From: Nanobdellota archaeon
GTDB lineage: Archaea; Nanobdellota; Nanobdellia; Woesearchaeales; GCA-2686295
Assembly: GCA_018817005.1 (NCBI GenBank)
Contig: JAHIUF010000018.1
Span: 4,964-68,963 of the forward strand
DNA length: 64,000 nt
Reading direction: 5' to 3'
Part shown: positions 6,027 to 63,390 of the stretch, in pieces
How positions within the stretch are numbered: position 1 is the first letter of the stretch
How the letters are laid out: the number at the start of each line of letters is the position of its first letter
Notes under the pieces: model-generated
Seen by the model: the letters and a program-made list of their open reading frames with translations, nothing else
The model's database searches: none
What the model was told of the DNA's origin: nothing
Made by a program: the position numbers and the translations under genes

Positions 6027-6506
6027 ATGAATATATTTAATCATTTTCTCACATCATTTATTGTACTTTTCATATTATTTCATAACAATGTTTTAATCAA
6101 AGAATTGGTTTTATTTTCATTCGTATTTGGTGTTTTATTAGACCTTAATCAAGTAATTGGAAGATATTTAAAAAAATCAAAAAACCACACTAGAACATGG
6201 ATTGAAGAACCATTTGGTTTAATTATTATTGGAATTCCATTAGGTTTAATTTTTAGTATAATAAAAACTGAATATTTCTTTTTGGTTATTATTCCTTTTG
6301 CAATTCATATAATTCTAGATTATCTTGTCATACATGAGGTTTCACCATTCGTCCCATTTTCAAATAAAAATATTGAACTCGGTTTTTTTAAATCAGCACC
6401 ACCACCTTTATGGTATACTGGAGAAGAAAAGGGTATTTCAGAAAACTATTTTTTAATATTAAATATGATTATAACTATGATTATTTTATGGACTATTTTC
6501 TTTTAA
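6027..6506 (+). CDS. hypothetical integral membrane protein (possibly YdjM/DUF457-like membrane hydrolase)
   Basis: 159 aa, 4-5 hydrophobic segments, His-rich motif IHIILDYLVIHE. Confidence 0.4.
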   Translation: MNIFNHFLTSFIVLFILFHNNVLIKELVLFSFVFGVLLDLNQVIGRYLKKSKNHTRTWIEEPFGLIIIGIPLGLIFSIIKTEYFFLVIIPFAIHIILDYLVIHEVSPFVPFSNKNIELGFFKSAPPPLWYTGEEKGISENYFLILNMIITMIILWTIFF

Positions 6507-6593: not shown

Positions 6594-7238
6594 CTAAAAA
6601 TTGAAGCGGTTAGGATTTTTTTGTCTTAATGTTTCAACGACTTCGCAAGTTCTTTTTACAATAGAATCATAAACCTCATCTTTAAGTCCTAGATTTGGAA
6701 AATTATTCAAAGAAGTTATTTGTTCTAAAGATGGTTGTTGTAAAGAACTCATTTCAGGAATAATTTTTAACATCCAAGGAGTTTTATGAGGTGGATTAGT
6801 TTTCGCTATTTCAATAACACTATTATAATCGTGTGTTCCTCCTTGATAGCCTCTGTTTTCAAGAAGTGAACAAACCGCATCCACTGCTCCAACAAGCATA
6901 TCATCTTCAGAAGCACCGATGACTGGTTTTGTTCTATCATTCGGATTAGGGTCGTTCCATTTCTGATGATGATATTGTTGTCTGTGTAAATTCAACGCAG
7001 GCATTATGTGAATTTGAAAATCTGGCTTTGGATTTCTATACTGTAGAGCAAACCCCTTTATTATATTCCATGAATATTTGTTTCCAGGTCCAACTAAATC
7101 ATGAGGTCTTTGAGGATCATTCGTTCCAAGGTTTAATCTCCCTAAAAAATATTCGACGTGACACGCGTGTTGAAGAGTTGAAACTAGCCAAGTTTTTATT
7201 TCATCTTCAGTTGGAATTAATTCTGTTTTAAAAGTCAT
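6594..7238 (-). CDS. hypothetical protein (His-rich, possible metal-dependent enzyme)
   Basis: 214-aa ORF overlapping the upstream ORF by 4 nt (operon); motifs HVEYF, RPHDL, HHQKW. Confidence 0.45.
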   Translation of the reverse strand: MTFKTELIPTEDEIKTWLVSTLQHACHVEYFLGRLNLGTNDPQRPHDLVGPGNKYSWNIIKGFALQYRNPKPDFQIHIMPALNLHRQQYHHQKWNDPNPNDRTKPVIGASEDDMLVGAVDAVCSLLENRGYQGGTHDYNSVIEIAKTNPPHKTPWMLKIIPEMSSLQQPSLEQITSLNNFPNLGLKDEVYDSIVKRTCEVVETLRQKNPNRFNF

Positions 7239-7588
7239 TTTTCATCTTGGTTTTTATGATTGTAACCATTCAATAAACCACAAAAAAGCGTGTGAATATA
7301 TGATTTAGGAACAGCTGTGTTAATGCTGCCGTTTCCATCTTCACAAAAATTCACAATTTGACACTCAGTTATAGTTTTATAGTCTTTTTCAAGGTTAATA
7401 AGAAGAGTGTAAAGTGTTTGTTTTTCAGGTTTTCTAAATAGTTTTTTCCTAATAACATTTCTTTCCTCTAGAAAATATTCGTTATCAAATTTTTGTCTTA
7501 CTTCTTGCAATAACTTATTAAGATATTCATCATTTACAGTAGTGTATTGCTCAAGAGTGTCTTTATCGTAATAAGATGTTATCGGCAT
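7235..7588 (-). CDS. hypothetical protein
   Basis: 117-aa ORF, first gene of a two-gene minus-strand operon, divergent from the TrmB-like regulator. Confidence 0.4.
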   Translation of the reverse strand: MPITSYYDKDTLEQYTTVNDEYLNKLLQEVRQKFDNEYFLEERNVIRKKLFRKPEKQTLYTLLINLEKDYKTITECQIVNFCEDGNGSINTAVPKSYIHTLFCGLLNGYNHKNQDEK

Positions 7589-7622
7589 ATATTGGGAATT
7601 GAAGTTAAGTATTTATAGTTAA

Positions 7623-7655
7623 GTGGTGTTGTAATGACACCACAATATTTAAATA
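7623..7655 (+). promoter_or_regulatory. Palindromic putative operator GTGGTGT-N7-ACACCAC overlapping BRE/TATA (ATATTTAAATA) upstream of the TrmB-like gene
   Basis: Perfect 7-bp inverted repeat at 7623-7629/7637-7643, TATA-like box 7645-7655, ATG at 7678. Confidence 0.35.
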
Positions 7656-7677: not shown

Positions 7678-8415
7678 ATGAACTGCTTAGAAAATATTGG
7701 ATTATCAAAAGGAGAAATAAAAGTATATGAAGCAATATTAGACATTGGAACATCAACCATTAATAAAATTCAAGAAATAACTGTAATAGAAAGAAGAAAT
7801 ATCTATGACATTATAAACAAACTAATCCATAAAGGGCTCATATCATATACTGTTGAGAAGGGTAAAAAAACATATCGATGCACGCACCCAAATAAAATCT
7901 TATCTTATCTGGAAGAAAAGAAAAACAATATAGAAAAAGAAGAAGAAAATATAAGAAAAGAACTTCCAAAAATTATTGAAAAATTCAAACTATCAAAGCC
8001 AGCAATATCAGCACAAACATTTATAGGAAAAGAAGGAATAAAAGCAATTTTCGAAGAAATTCTAAACTACAAAAAAAGTTACTTTATAGGTGGTGGGTGG
8101 TATGTGATAAAAGAACTGCCTTATTTCTGGTCACACTATAATGAAAAAAGAATAGAAAAAAAAATAAAATGGTACAACCTCGTAAGATATGAATTAAGGA
8201 ATGAAAAACCCAAAAAAATAGATTTGATTGAAATAAAATATTTACCGAAAGAATTCTCAGGCAGCCCCCACGTAATATTTATTTTTGGAAACAAAATAGT
8301 CAATGTGATGTGGGGAAAAGAAATATTTGCATTCATGATAGAAAGCAAAGAAATTGCTGACAATTACAAGAAATATCATAATTATTTGTGGAAAAACATT
8401 GCAAAGGAAAAATAA
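7678..8415 (+). CDS. TrmB-family transcriptional regulator
   Basis: N-terminal wHTH LSKGEIKVYEAILDIGTSTINKIQEITVIERRNIYDIINKLIHKGLISY typical of TrmB N-domain; about 245 aa. Confidence 0.65.
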   Translation: MNCLENIGLSKGEIKVYEAILDIGTSTINKIQEITVIERRNIYDIINKLIHKGLISYTVEKGKKTYRCTHPNKILSYLEEKKNNIEKEEENIRKELPKIIEKFKLSKPAISAQTFIGKEGIKAIFEEILNYKKSYFIGGGWYVIKELPYFWSHYNEKRIEKKIKWYNLVRYELRNEKPKKIDLIEIKYLPKEFSGSPHVIFIFGNKIVNVMWGKEIFAFMIESKEIADNYKKYHNYLWKNIAKEK

Positions 8416-8504: not shown

Positions 8505-10682
8505 TTATAGTTTCTTCATCTTCAAAAGCAAAGAATTACTCACAACACTAACAGAACTCATTGCCATGGCAACTCCTGCAATCATAGGATTTAATAGCCA
8601 GCCCATAAAAGGATATAATAAGCCTGCAGCCACAGGAATTCCTAGACTATTATAAAATAAAGCCCAAAACATGTTTTGTTTTATTTTGTTCATCGTGATT
8701 TTGCTTAATTTTATAGTTTTGACCACATCCATGATATCATTTTTCATCAAAATCACATCTCCTGTTTCCATAGCCACATCAGTTCCTGAACCCATAACTA
8801 TTCCCACATCTGCTTGAGCTAATGCTGGTGCATCATTAATCCCATCACCAACCATTGCAACAAATCCTTTCTTTTGCAGTTTCTTCACATAATTTACTTT
8901 GTCTTCAGGCAATACTTCTGCAAAATAGTAATCTATTCCTGCTTGTTTTGCCATGAATTTGGCTGTTCGCTCATTATCTCCTGTAATCATATACACGCAT
9001 ATCTTTAATTTCTTTAATTGTTTAATTGCCTCAAATGAACTATCTTTTATGGTGTCTGCAACAGCCATTAGACCTATTAGTTTTTTTGATTCCGCAAGCA
9101 ACATCACAGTTTTTCCTTGCTCTTCAAACTCAATTATTTCAGACTTATACATATTAAAACTAATGTTGTTATCATTCATTAATTTTTGATTCCCAAAAAA
9201 ATATTTTTTATTTTCAATGCTTGCAGTTATTCCATGTCCCGGAATTGATTTGAAATCTTTCACTTTTTTAAGAATAACTTTTTTTTCTTTTGCTTTTTTT
9301 ACTATTGCTTCAGCCAGAGGGTGTTCACTATTACTCTCAAGCGATCCTGCTAACGAAAGAATAGAATATTTGTTTTGTTTTTTCAAAGGAATTATGTCAG
9401 TTATCTCTGGTTTGCCTTTGGTTATAGTTCCAGTTTTGTCAAAAATAATATTTTTTATTTTGTGAGTGGACTCTAATGCTTCTCCTCCTTTTATTAATAT
9501 CCCGTTCTTTGCTCCTTTTCCAGTGCCAACCATTATAGCAGTTGGTGTTGCGAGACCAAGTGCACAAGGACATGCAATTACTAATACAGCAACACTCGCC
9601 ATTAATGCAAATTGAAACTCAGAGCCTATTATAAAAAACCAAGAAATAAATGTACTAAGTGCTATGATTAAAACAATTGGAACAAAGTATGCTGAAACAT
9701 AATCAGCGAATCTTTGTATTGGTGCTTTGTTTCCCTGAGCATTTTCAATGAGCTTTATTATTTGATAAAGTGTTGTGTTAGCACCTACTTTTGTGGCCTT
9801 GAAAATAAAACTTCCATGTTTGTTAATAGTAGCACCAATAACTAAATCACCTTTATTTTTTTCAACAGGAATACTTTCTCCTGTAATCAAACTTTCATCA
9901 ATAGATGAATAACCTTCAATAATAATTCCATCTACAGGAATTTTTTCTCCTGGTTTAACTATGATATTATCTCTGATTAAAACATCATCAACACCTATTT
10001 TTATTTCAATTCCATCTCTTATTACTGTTGCTAATTTAGGTTTTAATCCGATTAGTTTTTTTATTGCTTCACCAGTTTTTCCTTTTGCTTTTGATTCCAA
10101 TAATCTTCCAAATAAAACAATGGTAATTAAAACAGCACTCGCTTCAAAATATACATGCCCATAACCACTAAAAATAACATATACACTATGAAAATAAGCA
10201 GCCGAGGTTCCTAAAATAATAAGAGTGTCCATGTTAGCACTCTTACTTCTTAAAGAATTCAGTGCACTCTTATACATTGGCCATGCAATAACAAATTGCA
10301 CTGGTGTTGCAAGAACCCACATCAAAATATCTTGATATAATATTGGGTTTTTCATAAAAAACATTCCAAGAATGAAAACGGGGACTGCAAAAAAAAGACT
10401 GAAAAAGAATGATTTCTTAAGTTTCAAATATTCTTTTTTTTGCTTATTTTCATAAACACCAAACTCGTTTTCACTAGCAATTATTGCATTATATCCTTTG
10501 CCTATTATTGTGTTAATGAAAACTGTTTTGTTAGTTCTGCTTTCATCGTATTCAATAGTTACTTTATTAGTTGCTAAATTAACATTTGTACTTTTCACAC
10601 CGTCTAGTTTATTGAGAGATTTATTAATGAGAGTTGAGCAACTAGCACAATGCATTCCTGAAATTTGAATAATTGTTTTCAT
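8505..10682 (-). CDS. copA: Copper-translocating P1B-type ATPase
   Basis: N-terminal HMA domain GMHCASCS, membrane CPC motif (ACPCALG), [29 protein letters not shown]; start set at MKTIIQ so the ATG overlaps the mnmA stop (ATGA). Confidence 0.85.
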
Positions 10683-11731
10683 TTGATAATTCCTCCGCCA
10701 AGACAAACATTTTTTCTGTAAAACACGCAAAATTGTCCGGGTGTAACGCTATCTTGAAATGTGTTAAAAATAATTTTATATCCTGATTTTAAAGGAACAA
10801 GTTCGGCTTTACTCAATTTCTGAGCATACCTTGTTTTTGCTCTTACATCAAGTGTTTTTCTTGGATGCTTATTCGAAATAAAATTTATATTTCTCAAATA
10901 CACTTCTTTAGACCTAACATCAAGTCTGTTTTTAGTAACAATTAAATCATTTTTCTTTTTTTCCTTAACAAAATAAGTTTCTGATAAACCCAAACCTTTT
11001 CTTTGACCAATTGTAAAAAAATGAACCCCTTTATGTTCTCCAAGCAACTTTCCATTAACATCAAATATGTTTCCATTATTAATTCCTATTTCTTTTTCTA
11101 AAAATTTAGGCAAAGATTTATTTGAAATAAAACAAAAATTCTGGCTTTCTTTTTTCTTAAGAAAAATCTTAAAACCTTCTTTTTCGGCAATTTCAAAAAC
11201 TTCGCTTTTTAATAAATCATTCAAAGGAAAAATAATTTTTTTTAATTGGCTCTGTTTAAGAAAAGAAAGACCATAAGTTTGATCTTTATTCTTATCTTTT
11301 GGTCTTACAAGTTTAAATTCTCCACAGTCACTCTTTATTTTTTTAGCATAATGTCCGCTTGCAACATATTTTACACCTATTTTCTTTGCGTATTCTAGTA
11401 ATTTTGAAAATTTATGAAATCTATTACAAATAACACAAGGATTAGGAGTCCTTCCTTTTTTGAGCTCAGAAATGAAATACTCAATCACTTCTTTCTTAAA
11501 CTCCTTTCTAACATCATATACGTAATAAGGCACATTTAATTTTTTACAAACAGCCTTTGCCAAGTTCAAAGATTCTTTAGTACAACAAGCATTTTCACAT
11601 AATTGGTTAAACTTACTTCTCCAAACAGGAAGCTTTAAAGAAACACCCACAGGTTCGTAACCTTTTTTCTTTAATAAGATTAATGATACTGAAGAATCAA
11701 CTCCTCCTGACATACCCACAACGACTTTCAT
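10679..11731 (-). CDS. mnmA: tRNA-specific 2-thiouridylase MnmA
   Basis: PP-loop [15 protein letters not shown], 350 aa, conserved catalytic Cys region (NPCVICN). Confidence 0.85.
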
Positions 11732-11794: not shown

Positions 11795-13291
11795 TTAACT
11801 ACCACAACCACAACTTCCACCTCTTGTAGCCTCACAAACAGGAGATCCACAACTTCCACCACATGAGCCTTTTGGTTGTTGTGGAACTTGATTAATCTCT
11901 TTTTGTACTGCTTCTTGGTCAGAAAGATTAACATCATTTATTACAATGAATGTTCCAGGAATCATTCCCATCCAACAACTCCATCTCACAACACCTTCTT
12001 CATCAGGTGTAAACTCAACTATTTGTTCTCCTGATTTAATATTAAACTCCAAACCATATTTTGGTACTTGAATTGCATTATTACAACCAGTTATTTCTTT
12101 ACCATTAATTATCCATCTTACAGGAACTCCTTTCTTTAATACAAATGTGTCAGGATTCCAACCATTTCTGTTTACTTCCATTCTAATCTCTTGAAAACCA
12201 TCACTAACCGCAAGCACGCTTCCAACTGCCATTTCTTTAGTTCCAGTTGCAGTTACAAATCCGGAGATTGAAGAAAAATCATATCCAGTACCTGTTAGGA
12301 CAAGACTGTTGTTAATCATCACTAAACCAAGAATTATAACTATGACTCCTGATGCCTTTAATATTTTTTGCGTAACTTTTCCAGATACAAAACTTGCAAA
12401 ATATCCAAAACCAAGCATTACAGGTAATGTTCCAAGACCAAAAACTAAAAGTAGTTTTGCTCCTCCAATCATACTTCCTGTTCCTGCAGCCATAATATAT
12501 ATTGCCTGCAAAGGTCCACAAGCAATCATCAATCCATTTAACAAGCCGATTGTTAAAGGACTGGAGTATTTTGAGTTTTTACCAACGAAGTTTGTGATAA
12601 ATTTTGGTGTTCTTAATTGAATTTTTCTTAAGATTGGAAATATATTTAGCATTTTAAGTCCGTATAATACAAGAAACAATCCTGCTAGAAATCCAATCAC
12701 GCCTCTAATTGTTGGTGTGAATGCAATAAATGATCCGAGCAATCCAAATATTGCTCCTATAATGGTATATGAAGTAGTTTTTCCAATCCCATACATGAGA
12801 TGAGATTTATGAGATTTTGTTCCTTCCTGAGCGTGTTTTGCAGCATAACTAATAACAAACCCTCCACACATACTAATACAATGAAATCCTGTTAGTAATC
12901 CAACAACAAATAATAACCCAAAACTCATATTCTGACTTATGCTTGGCAACTGGATTCCATCAACAAAATTAAATAAAAAATATCCTACAATTATTAGTCC
13001 TATAATTGCAGAAATCCATCCAAAAGTTTTGTTGGTATTTTGTTTTTGTTCATTAAGAATAGAACAAGTGTAATTTTTTTCCTCAATTTTTGATAATATT
13101 TCATCAATATCTGTTTTTTTCTTATCAAAAACAACATAACCTGTTTCAGTTGACAGATCAAATGATACTTTGTTTACTCCGTTAACTTTAAGTGCTTGTT
13201 TCTTTATAATTGTTGCACAACCATCACAAGTTGTGCCTTTTGCGATAAAACCTTTTTTTTCAATCATTTTAATAAACCTCATAACCTTCAT
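11795..13291 (-). CDS. Heavy-metal-associated membrane protein: HMA domain, DsbD_2-like transmembrane core, cupredoxin-like domain, Cys-rich C-terminal tail
   Basis: N-terminal CDGCA metal-binding motif, TM region with CISMCGG, C-terminal beta-domain with CNNA...CWMGMIPG, tail GSCGGSCGSPVCEATRGGSCGCGS. Confidence 0.55.
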   Translation of the reverse strand: MKVMRFIKMIEKKGFIAKGTTCDGCATIIKKQALKVNGVNKVSFDLSTETGYVVFDKKKTDIDEILSKIEEKNYTCSILNEQKQNTNKTFGWISAIIGLIIVGYFLFNFVDGIQLPSISQNMSFGLLFVVGLLTGFHCISMCGGFVISYAAKHAQEGTKSHKSHLMYGIGKTTSYTIIGAIFGLLGSFIAFTPTIRGVIGFLAGLFLVLYGLKMLNIFPILRKIQLRTPKFITNFVGKNSKYSSPLTIGLLNGLMIACGPLQAIYIMAAGTGSMIGGAKLLLVFGLGTLPVMLGFGYFASFVSGKVTQKILKASGVIVIILGLVMINNSLVLTGTGYDFSSISGFVTATGTKEMAVGSVLAVSDGFQEIRMEVNRNGWNPDTFVLKKGVPVRWIINGKEITGCNNAIQVPKYGLEFNIKSGEQIVEFTPDEEGVVRWSCWMGMIPGTFIVINDVNLSDQEAVQKEINQVPQQPKGSCGGSCGSPVCEATRGGSCGCGS

Positions 13292-27010: not shown

Positions 27011-28959
27011 GATTTTGAAACATCAATTCTTTCTTTTAATTTTTTAACTCTATCTCGAAGTGCAATTGCTCTTTCGAATTCAAGTTTGTTTGCGGCTTTT
27101 TGCATTTCGAACTCTAATTCTATAATCAAATTCGGAACATCTTTTTTTGGAATGTGTTTTGCATCTGTTAGTTCAATTTCTTTTTCTTTAATAGGCTTTA
27201 TTATTGTTTTTGGTGTAATCTTATTTTTCTTATTATATTTCAACTGCAAATTTCTTCTTCTATTGGTTTCTAAAACTGCTTTTTTTATTGAATCAGTAAT
27301 TTTATCAGCGTATAAAACAACCTTTGAATTTATGTTTCTTGCAGCTCTGCCGATGATTTGTATAAGGCTTCTTGCGTCACGCAAAAATCCTTCTTTATCT
27401 GCGTCAAGTACTCCTATAAATCCTACTTCAGGAATGTCTAACCCTTCTCTTAAAAGATTAATCCCGACTAAGACGTCAAATTTTCCAAGCCTTAATTGTC
27501 TTATAATTTCTGTTCTTTCAAGTGTATCAATTTCAGAATGAAGATATCGAGTTTTTATTCCTGCTTCTGCAAAATATTCTGTTAATTCTTCAGCAAGTTT
27601 TTTTGTAAGTGTTGTTACAAGAACCCGGTCACCTCTGCTGATTGTTAATCGGATCTCTTCTTTTAAATCATTAATTTGTCCTTTAATTGGTTTTATCAAA
27701 ACCACTGGATCAACAAGACCTGTAGGTCTGATTATTTGTTCTACGATCTGTGATGAATGTGTTTCTTCATAAGGCCCTGGAGTTGCCGAAACAAACAACA
27801 CATTATTTTTTTTCATGAATTTTTCAAACTCTGAAAAGTCTAATGGTCGGTTATCAAATGCACTTGGAAGTCTGAAACCATAATCTATTAAATTTTTTTT
27901 TCTCGAATAATCACCCTTATACATTCCTCTTACTTGTGGTAATGTTTGGTGACTTTCATCAATAACAATCATAAAATCTTCTGGAAAATAATCAAGCAAA
28001 CAAAAAGGCCTCTCACCTTTTTTTCTTCCTTCAAAATACCTAGAATAATTTTCTATGCCTTTACAAAAACCTGTTTCTTCAATCATTTCCAAATCATAAA
28101 GAGTTCTTTGTTTTAATCGATGAGCCTCTAAAGGTTCTAATTCCAAAAGTCGCTCTTTAAGATCATCTTTTATTAAGTCTATTGAAGAACTTATTGTTTC
28201 CGGCGATATAACAAATTGTCTTGCGGGATAAACATGAAAATATTTCATATCTTCTAAAACATTACCAGATGTTTTTTCAATTTCAAGAATTTTTTCTACA
28301 ATATCACCAAATAATTCTATTCTTATGATGTTATCAAAATATCCTGGTATAAAATCAATTGTATCACCTTTAACCCTGAATCTTCCGGGCATAAGTTCTA
28401 AATCGTTTCTTTCAAACTGTAAATCAACAAGTTTTCTTATCAAGTCATTTCTTGAAAACTTTTTTTTAGAAACTATTTCAAATCCCATTTGTACAAAATT
28501 TTTTGGATCGCCAACACTGTAAATACAAGAAACTGAAGCTACAACTATCACATCTTTTCTTGATATAAGTGAGGCTGTTGCCGCAAGCCTCATCTGTTCG
28601 ATTTTTGGATTTACCTGGGCATCTTTTTCTATGTACTGATCTTTTTGTGGTATATATGATTCTGGCTGGTAATAATCATAGTATGAGACAAAATATTCAA
28701 CTCTATTTTTGGGAAAGAAATCTTTAAATTCGTTATAGAGTTGAGCAGCTAAAGTCTTGTTGTGTGCTAAAACAAGAGTTGGTTTTTGTATTTGAGATAT
28801 GATGTTTGCAACTGTAAATGTTTTTCCAGAACCCGTAACTCCCAGAAGCGTTTGGTAATTTAGTTTGTTCTTTAATCCTTTCATGAGTTTTTTTATTGCT
28901 TCTGGCTGTGAGCCTTTAGGCTTAAAGCTTGATTTGAGTTTAAATTCATTTAATGCCAT
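27007..28959 (-). CDS. uvrB: Excinuclease ABC subunit B
   Basis: 650 aa, LLGVTGSGKTFTVANII Walker A, helicase motifs, C-terminal UVR domain. Confidence 0.9.
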   Translation of the reverse strand: MALNEFKLKSSFKPKGSQPEAIKKLMKGLKNKLNYQTLLGVTGSGKTFTVANIISQIQKPTLVLAHNKTLAAQLYNEFKDFFPKNRVEYFVSYYDYYQPESYIPQKDQYIEKDAQVNPKIEQMRLAATASLISRKDVIVVASVSCIYSVGDPKNFVQMGFEIVSKKKFSRNDLIRKLVDLQFERNDLELMPGRFRVKGDTIDFIPGYFDNIIRIELFGDIVEKILEIEKTSGNVLEDMKYFHVYPARQFVISPETISSSIDLIKDDLKERLLELEPLEAHRLKQRTLYDLEMIEETGFCKGIENYSRYFEGRKKGERPFCLLDYFPEDFMIVIDESHQTLPQVRGMYKGDYSRKKNLIDYGFRLPSAFDNRPLDFSEFEKFMKKNNVLFVSATPGPYEETHSSQIVEQIIRPTGLVDPVVLIKPIKGQINDLKEEIRLTISRGDRVLVTTLTKKLAEELTEYFAEAGIKTRYLHSEIDTLERTEIIRQLRLGKFDVLVGINLLREGLDIPEVGFIGVLDADKEGFLRDARSLIQIIGRAARNINSKVVLYADKITDSIKKAVLETNRRRNLQLKYNKKNKITPKTIIKPIKEKEIELTDAKHIPKKDVPNLIIELEFEMQKAANKLEFERAIALRDRVKKLKERIDVSKS

Positions 28960-38121: not shown

Positions 38122-38910
38122 GTGAAAAAACTCAGACTTCAACAATTCTTGAGCATGACAGGGGCTTTTTCCAGTAAAAGCGCTGTTTTGAAAGCAATTA
38201 AAGATGGTGATATAATAATTGATAATAAAATAATGAAAAATCCTAATTTTCAAATTGGAATTTCAAGATTTGTGTTATGGAATAAAACAAAGCTTTTTGC
38301 AATCCGAAAGAAAACTTATATTGTTTTGAATAAGCCAGCAGGATTTCTTTCTTCTAAACTCAGCAAGAATGATGAACTTCTGAGGAAAAAAAGTGTTTTT
38401 TCCTTGCTTAAAGGACTAGATGAACAAACAATTAACACTTTGTTTTGCGTTGGAAGACTGGATGAAGACACAACTGGTCTTTTAATAATAACAAATGATG
38501 GGGAATTATCACACAAAACAACGAATCCTTTGTTCTCTGTTCATAAAAAATATCTTGTAACACTTGAGCAGGATTTATCTTCTGAAGCAAAAAAGAGGCT
38601 AGAACAGGGAGTTATAATAATTTTAGAAGAGAATAACAAAAAAACTGCATACAAAACAAAACCTTGTACAATAAATTTCAAAGATCAAAGTCAAAAACAA
38701 CTCATAATCACGCTTGCTGAAGGTAAAAAGCGTGAAGTAAAAAGAATGATTGAGACTGTGAAAAATAAAGTTACTGCTTTAGAAAGGATATCTATTGGTT
38801 GCTTAGAACTTGATGAACTTGATATTCCAAAAGGACAATATAAGACTTTTGAAAAAGATTTCTTACTTAACAAAATAAACTGCGAAGAAAAATCATCTTG
38901 TAAGCATTGA
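38122..38910 (+). CDS. Pseudouridine synthase, RsuA family (second copy; GTG start)
   Basis: S4 domain, catalytic GRLDEDTTGLLIITNDG. Confidence 0.65.
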   Translation: MKKLRLQQFLSMTGAFSSKSAVLKAIKDGDIIIDNKIMKNPNFQIGISRFVLWNKTKLFAIRKKTYIVLNKPAGFLSSKLSKNDELLRKKSVFSLLKGLDEQTINTLFCVGRLDEDTTGLLIITNDGELSHKTTNPLFSVHKKYLVTLEQDLSSEAKKRLEQGVIIILEENNKKTAYKTKPCTINFKDQSQKQLIITLAEGKKREVKRMIETVKNKVTALERISIGCLELDELDIPKGQYKTFEKDFLLNKINCEEKSSCKH

Positions 38911-39702: not shown

Positions 39703-39774
39703 GCAGGAGTGGCCAAACGGTAAGGTGAGCGCCTGCAGAGCGCTAGATTGGGGGTTCAAATCCCTCCTCCTGCT
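39703..39774 (+). tRNA. tRNA-Cys (anticodon GCA)
   Basis: Acceptor GCAGGAG/CTCCTGC, anticodon stem AGCGC/GCGCT with loop CTGCAGA, T-arm GGGGG-TTCAAAT-CCCTC, discriminator U73 (Cys identity element); short 3-bp D-stem. Confidence 0.8.
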
Positions 39775-62997: not shown

Positions 62998-63125
62998 GCG
63001 CACCCCCAAAACAAATATATTTCAGAGAAGTTAATAAAAGTTTCGTTTTAAACCATTAAAAACCGAGACTTAAAGAGATATACAAGAGATAGATTTAAAA
63101 AGCAAAAAACTTTCTTCCAGATTGC

Positions 63126-63390
63126 TAGACTGGGTGGCTCGTCCTCACCTGTAACTGCAAACGGATGTACGGCAGGGTTGAAGCCTGAGGGGCGGCGTAA
63201 TTTTAGTTATAGGTCTTGGTTGGACCGTCGACGTCTTGTCCTTTAGGATCAGGATTTTTATGAACTGAGTCAGATCAGGAATGAAGCAGCTCTAAGTATT
63301 AATCGTGGTGTCTAAGGGGTTGCAGGATTGAGGAAAAATCAAGGTAGCCTTTGATTGGAGTTTTCGTCCACCTTCAGGCGTGCACTTTTA
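63126..63390 (+). ncRNA. Signal recognition particle RNA (7S/SRP RNA) candidate
   Basis: GC-rich island in AT-rich genome; helix-8-like GAGUCAGAUCA-GGAA-UGAAGCAGCUC (compare E. coli 4.5S GUCAGGUCCGGAAGGAAGCAGCC); 5'/3' regions complementary; TATA-like GATTTAAAAA about 30 nt upstream, T-run after. Confidence 0.55.

What the first reader, a model, noticed from the sequence alone, without database searches (positions are those of the whole stretch)
7623..7655. Perfect palindrome GTGGTGT-N7-ACACCAC overlapping the BRE/TATA of the TrmB-like gene, in a divergent promoter region
TrmB-family regulators bind palindromes of similar geometry overlapping BRE/TATA. The site sits 35-55 nt upstream of the regulator ATG and about 35 nt from the start of the divergent two-gene operon of unknown His-rich proteins (6594-7588). 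This suggests autoregulation and control of the divergent operon.
Basis: partly seen in the sequence, partly recalled or inferred. Interest (0 to 1): 0.5.

Follow-up and report, generated by a model that had tools for sequence, protein, structure and literature searches.

The report
Conserved operator of a DPANN TrmB-like regulator
The palindrome is real and is almost certainly the DNA site where the neighbouring TrmB-like regulator binds to control itself and the gene pair transcribed in the opposite direction, because the same site sits at the same place in front of this regulator in nearly every related archaeal genome examined.

Summary
GTGGTGT-N7-ACACCAC (7623-7643) is present exactly as described. 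It lies at the exact centre of the 89-nt gap between the TrmB-like gene (ATG 7678) and a divergent two-gene operon (ATG 7588), 45 nt from each start. A TATA box flanks it on each side: 7648-7655 on the + strand and 7610-7617 on the - strand.

Chance alone is a weak argument: 12% of random 89-mers hold some 7+7 inverted repeat, and 0.3% hold one this G+C-rich. Conservation decides it. In 79 orthologous loci from DPANN archaea, 77 carry TGTGGTAT-N5-7-ATACCAYA within 80 nt of the orthologue's start. Only one other site was found in 579 kb. A matrix built without the window scores the window site 28.4 bits; the next best in 64 kb scores 12.1.

The operator span (18 or 19 nt) tracks a 4-residue indel in the protein's dimerisation helix perfectly, and a recognition-helix change tracks a half-site change. 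The upstream gene is always divergent, though its identity varies.

Corrections: the site abuts the BRE and does not cover the TATA box; the motif differs from all known TrmB motifs; the divergent proteins are not His-rich, and one has an HD-type hydrolase fold. Repression is favoured but only inferred. This is a new member of a known kind.

The parts
7623..7643 (.). Operator: perfect inverted repeat GTGGTGT-N7-ACACCAC, centred at 7633. Family consensus is TGTGGTAT-N5..7-ATACCA(C/T)A.
   Evidence: Searches confirm the sequence. It scores 28.4 bits with a matrix built from other species' promoters and is unique in the window. It is conserved in 77/79 orthologous loci. It co-varies with the protein.
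7648..7655 (+). TATA box (TTTAAATA) of the TrmB-like gene. Its centre lies at -26/-27 from the A of ATG 7678, which implies a leaderless mRNA.
   Evidence: Across the family the gap from TATA to ATG is 21-22 nt in 55/69 loci, whatever the operator-TATA offset. The canonical positions come from PMC4158304. The transcription start is inferred, not measured.
7644..7647 (+). BRE region of the TrmB-like promoter (AA at 7644-7645, which is -34/-33), directly abutting the right arm of the operator.
   Evidence: BRE positions come from PMC4158304. The family consensus is CCA-TAAt.-TTTAAATA. Inferred.
7610..7617 (-). TATA box of the divergent operon (reads TATAAATA on the - strand). It lies 21 nt before ATG 7588, which implies a leaderless mRNA.
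   Evidence: A TATA box lies at a fixed offset of 6 nt from the TGG core in 57/69 loci. It reads as TTTAWATA on the - strand in the family consensus.
7618..7622 (-). BRE region of the divergent promoter, between the left arm of the operator and TATA(-).
   Evidence: the family consensus reads CCA-CAAAt.-TTTATATA on the - strand. Inferred.
7678..8415 (+). [quoted passage not shown]
   Evidence: Pfam TrmB PF01978 scores 49.7 bits against a cutoff of 25.6. The AF2 model has pLDDT 90. Foldseek matches are TrmBL2 5bqt at E 1e-13 and TrmB 3qph at E 1e-8. There are 303 homologues at 50-63% identity across DPANN lineages.
7235..7588 (-). First gene of the divergent operon: 117 aa, no recognisable family.
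   Evidence: Searches found no Pfam or NCBIfam family and no homologue in any fetched locus.
6594..7238 (-). Second gene of the divergent operon (4-nt overlap with the first): 214 aa, a conserved DPANN/CPR hypothetical protein with a probable HD-superfamily phosphohydrolase fold.

Best explanation
The palindrome is the cognate operator of the adjacent TrmB-like regulator. A dimer of the protein binds the two half-sites (GTGGTRT) through its winged helix-turn-helix domains. The site sits at the exact centre of a compact, mirror-symmetric divergent promoter with this layout: ATG(-) - 21 nt - TATA(-) - 5 nt - operator (21 nt) - 4 nt - TATA(+) - 22 nt - ATG(+). Both genes are probably transcribed as leaderless mRNAs. 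The operator abuts or overlaps both BREs, so one bound dimer is placed to control TFB/TBP access at both promoters at once. The result is autoregulation of the regulator plus co-regulation of the divergent two-gene operon (a 117-aa unknown protein and a 214-aa HD-like hydrolase). The most likely sign is repression, relieved by an unknown ligand of the C-terminal domain. Shown here: the conservation, position, specificity and protein co-variation of the site. Inferred: physical binding, the transcription starts, the sign of regulation and the existence of a ligand.
For: The site is present at the same place (centre 41-45 nt, or about 52 nt, before the ATG) in 77/79 orthologous loci from different DPANN species. 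Only 1 other site of at least 14 bits occurs in 579 kb, and none occurs in the 64-kb window. In a metagenome scan, all 12 matches with promoter-like context are next to a TrmB-like start; the other 55 are coding-region chance matches in unrelated contigs. The operator span of 18 versus 19 nt coincides perfectly with a 4-residue deletion in the coiled-coil helix (28/28 and 52/52), with at least 3 independent switches on an NJ tree. The E38-to-D/N change at the start of the recognition helix goes with the half-site change TGGTATT to TGGTAAT/TGGTGAT. The recognition-helix residues E38, R39, R40, Y43, D44, N47 and K48 are invariant, like the TGGT core. Y43/D44 align with the DNA-contacting Y50/D51 of P. 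furiosus TrmB. The arms vary independently at the A/G position (27 complementary against 25.6 expected), so sequence is conserved rather than base-pairing. The upstream gene is divergent in 68/68 evaluable loci against 12% of other gene pairs. More distant TrmB paralogues carry their own, different palindromes in the same TATA-palindrome-TATA layout. Four observations favour repression. First, both TATA boxes are near-consensus. Second, in 12 loci the operator is only 2 nt from TATA(+) and so occupies the BRE. Third, in 4 loci it lies between the TATA box and the ATG. Fourth, P. furiosus TrmB represses from a site at the BRE/TATA (PMC4158304).
Against: There is no binding, expression or TSS data for any member of this family. 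The TrmB-family rule of thumb says sites upstream of the BRE/TATA activate (PMC4158304), and in most loci the site is formally upstream of both TATA boxes. In a subgroup it lies 13 nt from TATA(+), clear of that BRE. The matrix was trained on the same loci in which the 77/79 were counted; the window itself was left out, and the absence of sites elsewhere is not circular. The linker/spacing correlation rests on about 3 phylogenetic events. Only about 8.7 kb per genome was scanned, so a handful of distal targets per genome cannot be excluded.
Confidence: 0.72

Rival explanations
1. The protein and site are the same, but the bound dimer activates one or both promoters. It would recruit TFB/TBP from a position just upstream of the BRE, as TrmBL1/Tgr do at gluconeogenic promoters and as Ptr2 and TFB-RF1 do.
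For: The site is upstream of both TATA boxes, and the TrmB-family review states that upstream sites go with activation. Spacing to TATA(-) is rigid (offset 6 in 57/69 loci), as expected for a stereospecific contact with the initiation factors. In the IDRRN subgroup the site is 13 nt from TATA(+) and leaves that BRE free.
Against: Both core promoters are near-consensus (8/8 or 7/8 TATA matches in most loci), whereas activated archaeal promoters usually have weak elements. In 12 loci the site replaces the BRE, and in 4 loci it lies between the TATA box and the start; both are positions that block initiation. Positive autoregulation alone would be unstable without another input.
Confidence: 0.2
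2. The palindrome is bound by some other factor, or is a general promoter or structural element (cruciform, RNA hairpin, recombination site), and merely travels with the regulator gene.
For: No binding data exist. The divergent partner gene changes from genome to genome, which could hint at a recombination hotspot.
Against: The site is found at no other promoter in 64 kb plus 579 kb. Its spacing and half-site sequence change together with the adjacent protein's linker and recognition helix. The arms do not co-vary to keep pairing. It lies between the two TATA boxes and so is probably not transcribed. Paralogues have their own palindromes.
Confidence: 0.05
3. It is a chance palindrome in AT-rich intergenic DNA.
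For: 12% of random 89-mers of this composition hold some perfect 7+7 inverted repeat. 193 such repeats occur in the window.
Against: Only 0.3% of random 89-mers hold one this G+C-rich. The site is conserved in 77/79 orthologous promoters spanning several DPANN phyla. It scores 28.4 bits with a matrix that excludes the window.
Confidence: 0.01

Closest known systems
Pyrococcus furiosus / Thermococcus litoralis TrmB at the trehalose/maltose (malE) promoter
   Same: It shares the TrmB-type wHTH plus coiled-coil dimer. It binds a palindromic operator at the BRE/TATA of a promoter next to the regulator's own gene cluster and represses by blocking initiation (PMC4158304). The DNA-contact Tyr-Asp pair is conserved (Y43/D44 here).
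   Different: The operator is TACT-N3-AGTA rather than GTGGTRT-N7-AYACCAC. TrmB is 338 aa with a sugar-binding C-terminal subdomain that is absent here (245 aa; the PDB sequence match covers only aa 5-103). The NCBIfam TrmB equivalog scores 27.8 bits against a cutoff of 600. The ligand here is unknown.
TrmBL2 (Thermococcales chromatin protein / global repressor)
   Same: It is the best structural match over the full length (Foldseek E 1e-13, about 262 aligned columns). It has the same three-part architecture without the sugar-binding subdomain and is of similar length (about 260 aa).
   Different: Sequence identity is only about 16%. The NCBIfam TrmBL2 model scores 23.3 bits against a cutoff of 530. 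TrmBL2 coats coding and intergenic DNA with low specificity (table), whereas this family has one highly specific site at its own promoter.
TrmBL1 / Tgr and the Thermococcales glycolytic motif (TGM)
   Same: It is a TrmB-family dimer recognising an inverted repeat near the BRE/TATA. Autoregulation has been proposed, and the position of the site decides the sign of regulation. The half-site GTGATA faintly resembles GTGGTAT.
   Different: The TGM is TATCAC-N5-GTGATA, with half-sites in the opposite relative orientation and centres 11 bp apart instead of 14. The TGM regulon has more than 30 genes, whereas no second site was found here. The NCBIfam TrmBL1 model scores 22.3 bits against a cutoff of 650.
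Archaeal and bacterial divergently transcribed local regulators with a shared operator (e.g. Lrs14 and LrpA autoregulation; BarR of Sulfolobus)
   Same: The regulator gene is transcribed divergently from its target, and a single intergenic operator serves both promoters, with autoregulation (for the literature pointers).
   Different: Those belong to other protein families (Lrs14, Lrp). Here the intergenic region is exactly mirror-symmetric (45 nt to each ATG), with two leaderless promoters. The target gene is not conserved, while the promoter module is.

Membership tests
TrmB family of archaeal transcription regulators (Pfam PF01978) | N-terminal TrmB-type winged helix-turn-helix domain | tested here: met
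   PF01978 scores 49.7 bits (cutoff 25.6) over aa 4-71. The profile matches TrmB 3qph residues 10-104 at E 1.7e-5.
TrmB family of archaeal transcription regulators (Pfam PF01978) | Amphipathic coiled-coil helix after the wHTH that mediates dimerisation | tested here: met
   The AF2 model shows a continuous helix at 72-106, aligned to the TrmB helix. This is a prediction only. Indels of 4 residues in this helix track the operator spacing.
TrmB family of archaeal transcription regulators (Pfam PF01978) | DNA-contacting Tyr-Asp pair in the recognition helix (TrmB Y50/D51) | tested here: met
   Y43 and D44 are invariant in 40 sequences and align with TrmB Y50/D51. Their role is taken from PMC4158304.
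TrmB family of archaeal transcription regulators (Pfam PF01978) | Sugar-binding C-terminal effector domain (TrmB, TrmBL1, Tgr) | tested here: not met
   There is no sequence match beyond aa 103-122 to TrmB, TrmBL1 or TrmBL2 models. The 245-aa length and the fold correspond to TrmBL2, which lacks the sugar-binding subdomain.
TrmB family of archaeal transcription regulators (Pfam PF01978) | Binds a palindromic operator at or near the BRE/TATA or TSS of its targets | not testable with these tools
TrmBL1/Tgr-TGM regulon | Operator TATCAC-N5-GTGATA and equivalog-level protein similarity | tested here: not met
   The operator consensus here is TGTGGTAT-N5..7-ATACCAYA. The NCBIfam TrmBL1 model scores 22.3 bits against a cutoff of 650.
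TrmBL2 chromatin proteins | Equivalog-level similarity and low-specificity coating of DNA | tested here: not met
   NCBIfam TrmBL2 scores 23.3 bits against a cutoff of 530; only the fold is shared. A single, highly specific conserved site argues for a specific regulator, but DNA coating itself cannot be tested here.
Canonical archaeal BRE/TATA promoter, leaderless transcript | TATA box centred at -26/-27 and BRE adenines at -33/-34 relative to the start | tested here: met
   If the TSS is the A of ATG 7678, the centre of TTTAAATA 7648-7655 falls at -26/-27 and AA 7644-7645 falls at -34/-33 (positions). The TATA-ATG gap is 21-22 nt in 55/69 loci. The TSS itself has not been measured.

The most novel reading that the evidence does not exclude
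The regulator gene together with its mirror-symmetric, single-operator bidirectional promoter may be a conserved, portable control module of DPANN archaea. It would have been re-wired again and again to different divergent cargo genes: a PF13557-like secreted protein in 23 loci, ABC-uptake components, radical-SAM enzymes, and here an HD-like hydrolase operon. In that reading, one widely conserved sensor protein (50-63% identical across phyla), responding to one still unknown and possibly host-derived signal, switches lineage-specific functions. Alternatively, the protein doubles as a TrmBL2-like nucleoid protein whose dosage is set by this high-affinity site.
Probability: 0.25. Interest if true: 0.65.

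Novelty: new member of a known kind. Interest (0 to 1): 0.48.

Why it matters
Almost nothing is known about gene regulation in DPANN archaea, which are mostly uncultured symbionts with tiny genomes. This finding gives a concrete, sequence-defined regulator-operator pair that is conserved across Woese-, Pace-, Nano-, Aenigm- and Micrarchaeota-labelled genomes. It comes with a defined promoter architecture: two back-to-back leaderless promoters sharing one operator. It also contains a natural experiment, in which a 4-residue linker indel goes with a 1-bp change in operator spacing. All of this is directly testable with recombinant protein and synthetic DNA, without culturing the organisms. It also offers a way to annotate promoters and the genes under this switch in DPANN metagenomes.

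Tried and rejected
1. A generic "best inverted repeat" finder on the upstream regions was too noisy in AT-rich DNA. It was replaced by anchoring on TGG-N12/13-CCA.
2. A regulon search found nothing credible. The matrix scan of the window gave only 12.1-bit and 9.8-bit hits inside coding DNA (10300-10321 in copA; 6126-6147), at chance level. In 579 kb of loci there was one extra hit, next to a regulator start.
3. The metagenome exact-pattern scan gave 55 matches not next to a TrmB-like gene. They lack the TATA flanks, lie inside ORFs of unrelated contigs that are often GC-rich or bacterial/phage-like, and include duplicates. The four with family-like spacers (L092, L096, L114, L122) were checked and all overlap coding regions. 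They were rejected as chance.
4. The window holds no second TrmB paralogue and no homologue of the commonest divergent partner family, PF13557-like.
5. The 117-aa protein has no family and no homologue in any locus.
7. The genomic context of 214-aa homologues varies. One sits downstream of a distant TrmB paralogue that has its own palindrome, so there is no conserved regulator-target pair.
8. Literature searches for TrmB plus DPANN, and for DPANN promoter motifs, found no description of this family or motif.
9. The RNA-hairpin or cruciform reading was rejected because the arms do not co-vary and the site lies between the two TATA boxes.

Full report
**Observation**

The sequence read shows GTGGTGT (7623-7629), a 7-nt spacer tgtaatg, and ACACCAC (7637-7643). 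This is followed by aatATTTAAATA, with TTTAAATA at 7648-7655. The ATG of a 245-aa ORF lies at 7678 (7678-8415, +). On the other side, a 117-aa ORF starts at 7588 (7235-7588, -). It overlaps a 214-aa ORF (6594-7238, -) by 4 nt. The pattern with up to 2 mismatches occurs once in the window, against 0.04 expected.

The window has about 30% G+C. It is archaeal, because it carries an archaeal SRP RNA at 63118-63389. The closest database proteins are labelled Nanoarchaeota, Woesearchaeota or Pacearchaeota.

By itself the palindrome is only moderately unusual:
- 193 perfect 7+7 inverted repeats with spacers of 0-15 occur in the window, but only four loci have at least 4 G/C per arm.
- A random 89-mer of window composition holds some such repeat in 12% of trials, and one this G+C-rich in 0.3%.

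**The regulator**

- The ORF has a Pfam TrmB domain at aa 4-71 (49.7 bits, cutoff 25.6).
- A profile of 40 homologues matches P. furiosus TrmB (3qph) only over the winged helix-turn-helix (wHTH) and the following helix.
- An AlphaFold model (pLDDT 90) shows the wHTH, a 35-residue helix (72-106) and an alpha/beta C-terminal domain.
- The best Foldseek matches over the full length are TrmBL2 (5bqt/5bpd, E 1e-13) and then TrmB (E 1e-8).
- NCBIfam equivalog models for TrmB, TrmBL1 and TrmBL2 score 22-28 bits against cutoffs of 530-650.

The protein is therefore a TrmB-family member with TrmBL2-like architecture. It is not an orthologue of any characterised member. Homologues are 50-63% identical across several DPANN lineages. 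The recognition helix is invariant at E38, R39, R40, Y43, D44, N47 and K48. Y43/D44 align with the DNA-contacting Y50/D51 of TrmB.

**Conservation of the site**

A scan of one genome per GTDB species returned 79 loci with orthologues at 44-59% identity. The 110 nt upstream of nearly all of them show the same element. Anchored alignment gives these consensus sequences:
- 19-nt class (n=49): TATaTAAA.aTTTG-TGGTATTgTtACAAtACCA-TAAt.TTtAAAtA
- 18-nt class (n=24): TATTTAAA.aTaTG-TGGTATA.TAcTAtACCA-tAAAAT.TAtAaAta

A matrix built from these sites with the window left out scores the window site 28.4 bits. The next best hit in the 64 kb scores 12.1 bits and lies inside copA.

In the 579 kb of the 79 loci, 77 have a site of at least 14 bits within 80 nt of the orthologue's start. 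The two exceptions are a contig cut through the site and one divergent variant. Only one further hit exists anywhere, and it is next to a regulator start.

An exact-pattern scan of the metagenome collection gave 67 stretches. Twelve are next to a TrmB-like start, and all twelve have the TATA-palindrome-TATA layout. The other 55 lack the TATA flanks and lie inside ORFs of unrelated, often GC-rich, contigs. They are consistent with chance for an 18-base pattern.

**Promoter geometry**

In the window the palindrome centre (7633) is 45 nt from both start codons.

For the + promoter:
- TTTAAATA 7648-7655 lies 22 nt before ATG 7678.
- If transcription starts at the ATG, the TATA centre falls at -26/-27 and the adenines 7644-7645 fall at -34/-33. 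These are the canonical archaeal positions (PMC4158304).

For the - promoter:
- 7610-7617 reads TATAAATA on the - strand and lies 21 nt before ATG 7588.

Across the family:
- The TATA(+)-to-ATG gap is 21-22 nt in 55/69 loci, whether the operator is 2, 4, 5 or 13 nt from the TATA box.
- No conserved Shine-Dalgarno sequence is visible. Together with the fixed gap, this is the signature of a leaderless mRNA.
- TATA(-) sits at a fixed 6 nt from the TGG core in 57/69 loci. It reads as TTTAWATA on the - strand.
- About a third of divergent genes lie 21-25 nt beyond TATA(-); the rest have leaders.
- The upstream neighbour is divergent in 68/68 evaluable loci, against 12% of other adjacent pairs. The gap is 85-100 nt in 35/68, against 9/66 of other divergent pairs.

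The operator thus lies between two back-to-back core promoters and abuts both BREs.

**Evidence that the adjacent protein is the binder**

- The TGG..CCA span is 18 nt in all 28 loci whose protein lacks 4 residues in the coiled-coil helix. It is 19 nt in all 52 with the full helix.
- On an NJ tree this spacing class changed at least 3 times.
- Replacement of E38 by D or N at the start of the recognition helix goes with TGGTATT changing to TGGTAAT or TGGTGAT.
- The arms vary independently at the A/G position (27 complementary against 25.6 expected). Half-site sequence is therefore under selection, not pairing.
- More distant TrmB paralogues in the same loci carry their own, different palindromes in the same layout.

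**Targets**

The divergent gene is not conserved:
- A secreted protein of about 250 aa matching PF13557 is in the divergent unit in 23 loci.
- Others are ABC substrate-binding proteins or permeases, or B12/radical-SAM enzymes.
- Many are singletons.

In the window the unit consists of two genes:
- The 117-aa protein has no relatives in any family library or locus.
- The 214-aa protein belongs to a conserved DPANN/CPR family without a Pfam domain.
  - Its invariant residues are H24, H46-D47, H85, H90-H91 and D120.
  - It gives a confident model (pLDDT 95).
  - It is probably a divergent HD-type phosphohydrolase.

Neither protein is His-rich, at 1.7% and 4.2% His.

**Mechanism and its uncertainty**

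That the site is the regulator's own operator, serving both promoters, is well supported. The sign of regulation is inferred.

In favour of repression:
- Both TATA boxes are near-consensus.
- In 12 loci the operator is 2 nt from TATA(+) and occupies the BRE.
- In 4 loci it lies between the TATA box and the ATG.
- TrmB represses from a BRE/TATA site.

In favour of activation:
- The family rule is that sites upstream of the BRE/TATA activate.
- Spacing to TATA(-) is rigid.

No ligand can be named.

**Comparison and novelty**

The motif differs from TACT-N3-AGTA, TATCAC-N5-GTGATA and TACT-N7-8-GAGTA. Literature searches found no description of this family or motif in DPANN.

The principle is well known: a divergently transcribed, autoregulated local regulator with a palindromic operator at the core promoter. 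This is therefore a new member of a known kind. Three points are of note: it is conserved across DPANN, its promoter is exactly symmetric and leaderless on both sides, and it shows a linker-length/operator-spacing correlation.

Noticed in passing
[not shown]
   Followed up: partly
L003, L007, L009, L012, L015, L022, L028, L030, L035, L041, L043, L044, L061, L062, L065 (gene directly divergent from the regulator; 23 loci in all): The commonest divergent partner of the regulator is a protein of about 250 aa with a signal peptide, a conserved G-x-RGPTNWQ motif and a Pfam PF13557 (Phenol_MetA_deg, a bacterial outer-membrane-type family) match. That is odd for archaea, which lack an outer membrane.
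   Followed up: partly
L036 2254-6090; also L070, L078, L059, L011: Several DPANN loci carry two or three TrmB-family paralogues close together. Each has its own divergent partner gene and its own distinct palindrome, which suggests a family of insulated regulator/operator modules.
   Followed up: partly
L074, L076, L077, L078 (upstream of the regulator): In this subgroup the same operator lies between a palindromic TATA box (TATTTAAATA) and the regulator's ATG, with its centre 10-13 nt before the ATG. There is no second TATA box, and the divergent gene has a leader with a GGAGGT Shine-Dalgarno sequence. One TATA box may serve both directions here.
   Followed up: no
window 8505-10730 (-) and 10679-11731 (-): A CopA-type P1B ATPase (HMA, E1-E2 ATPase and hydrolase domains) lies convergent to the TrmB-like gene. 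Its listed TTG start overlaps the end of a 350-aa ORF upstream on the same strand by about 50 nt. No operator-like site lies in front of it, so it does not appear to belong to this regulator.
   Followed up: partly
window 38708-38735; also 13215-13236 and 28570-28592: These are the other G+C-containing perfect inverted repeats in the window: TCACGCTT-N12-AAGCGTGA, GCACAAC-N8-GTTGTGC and TGAGGCT-N9-AGCCTCA. They were not examined.
   Followed up: no
window 63118-63389 (+) and 39703-39774 (+): An archaeal SRP RNA (119.5 bits) and a tRNA-Cys(GCA) were found. They confirm that the window is archaeal.
   Followed up: yes
L043, P0048, and several loci titled 'uncultured Methanosarcinales': Some contigs carrying this DPANN-type regulator and operator are labelled Aminicenantes, Proteobacteria or Methanosarcinales in their records. 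This is probably mis-binning or mislabelling of DPANN contigs.
   Followed up: no
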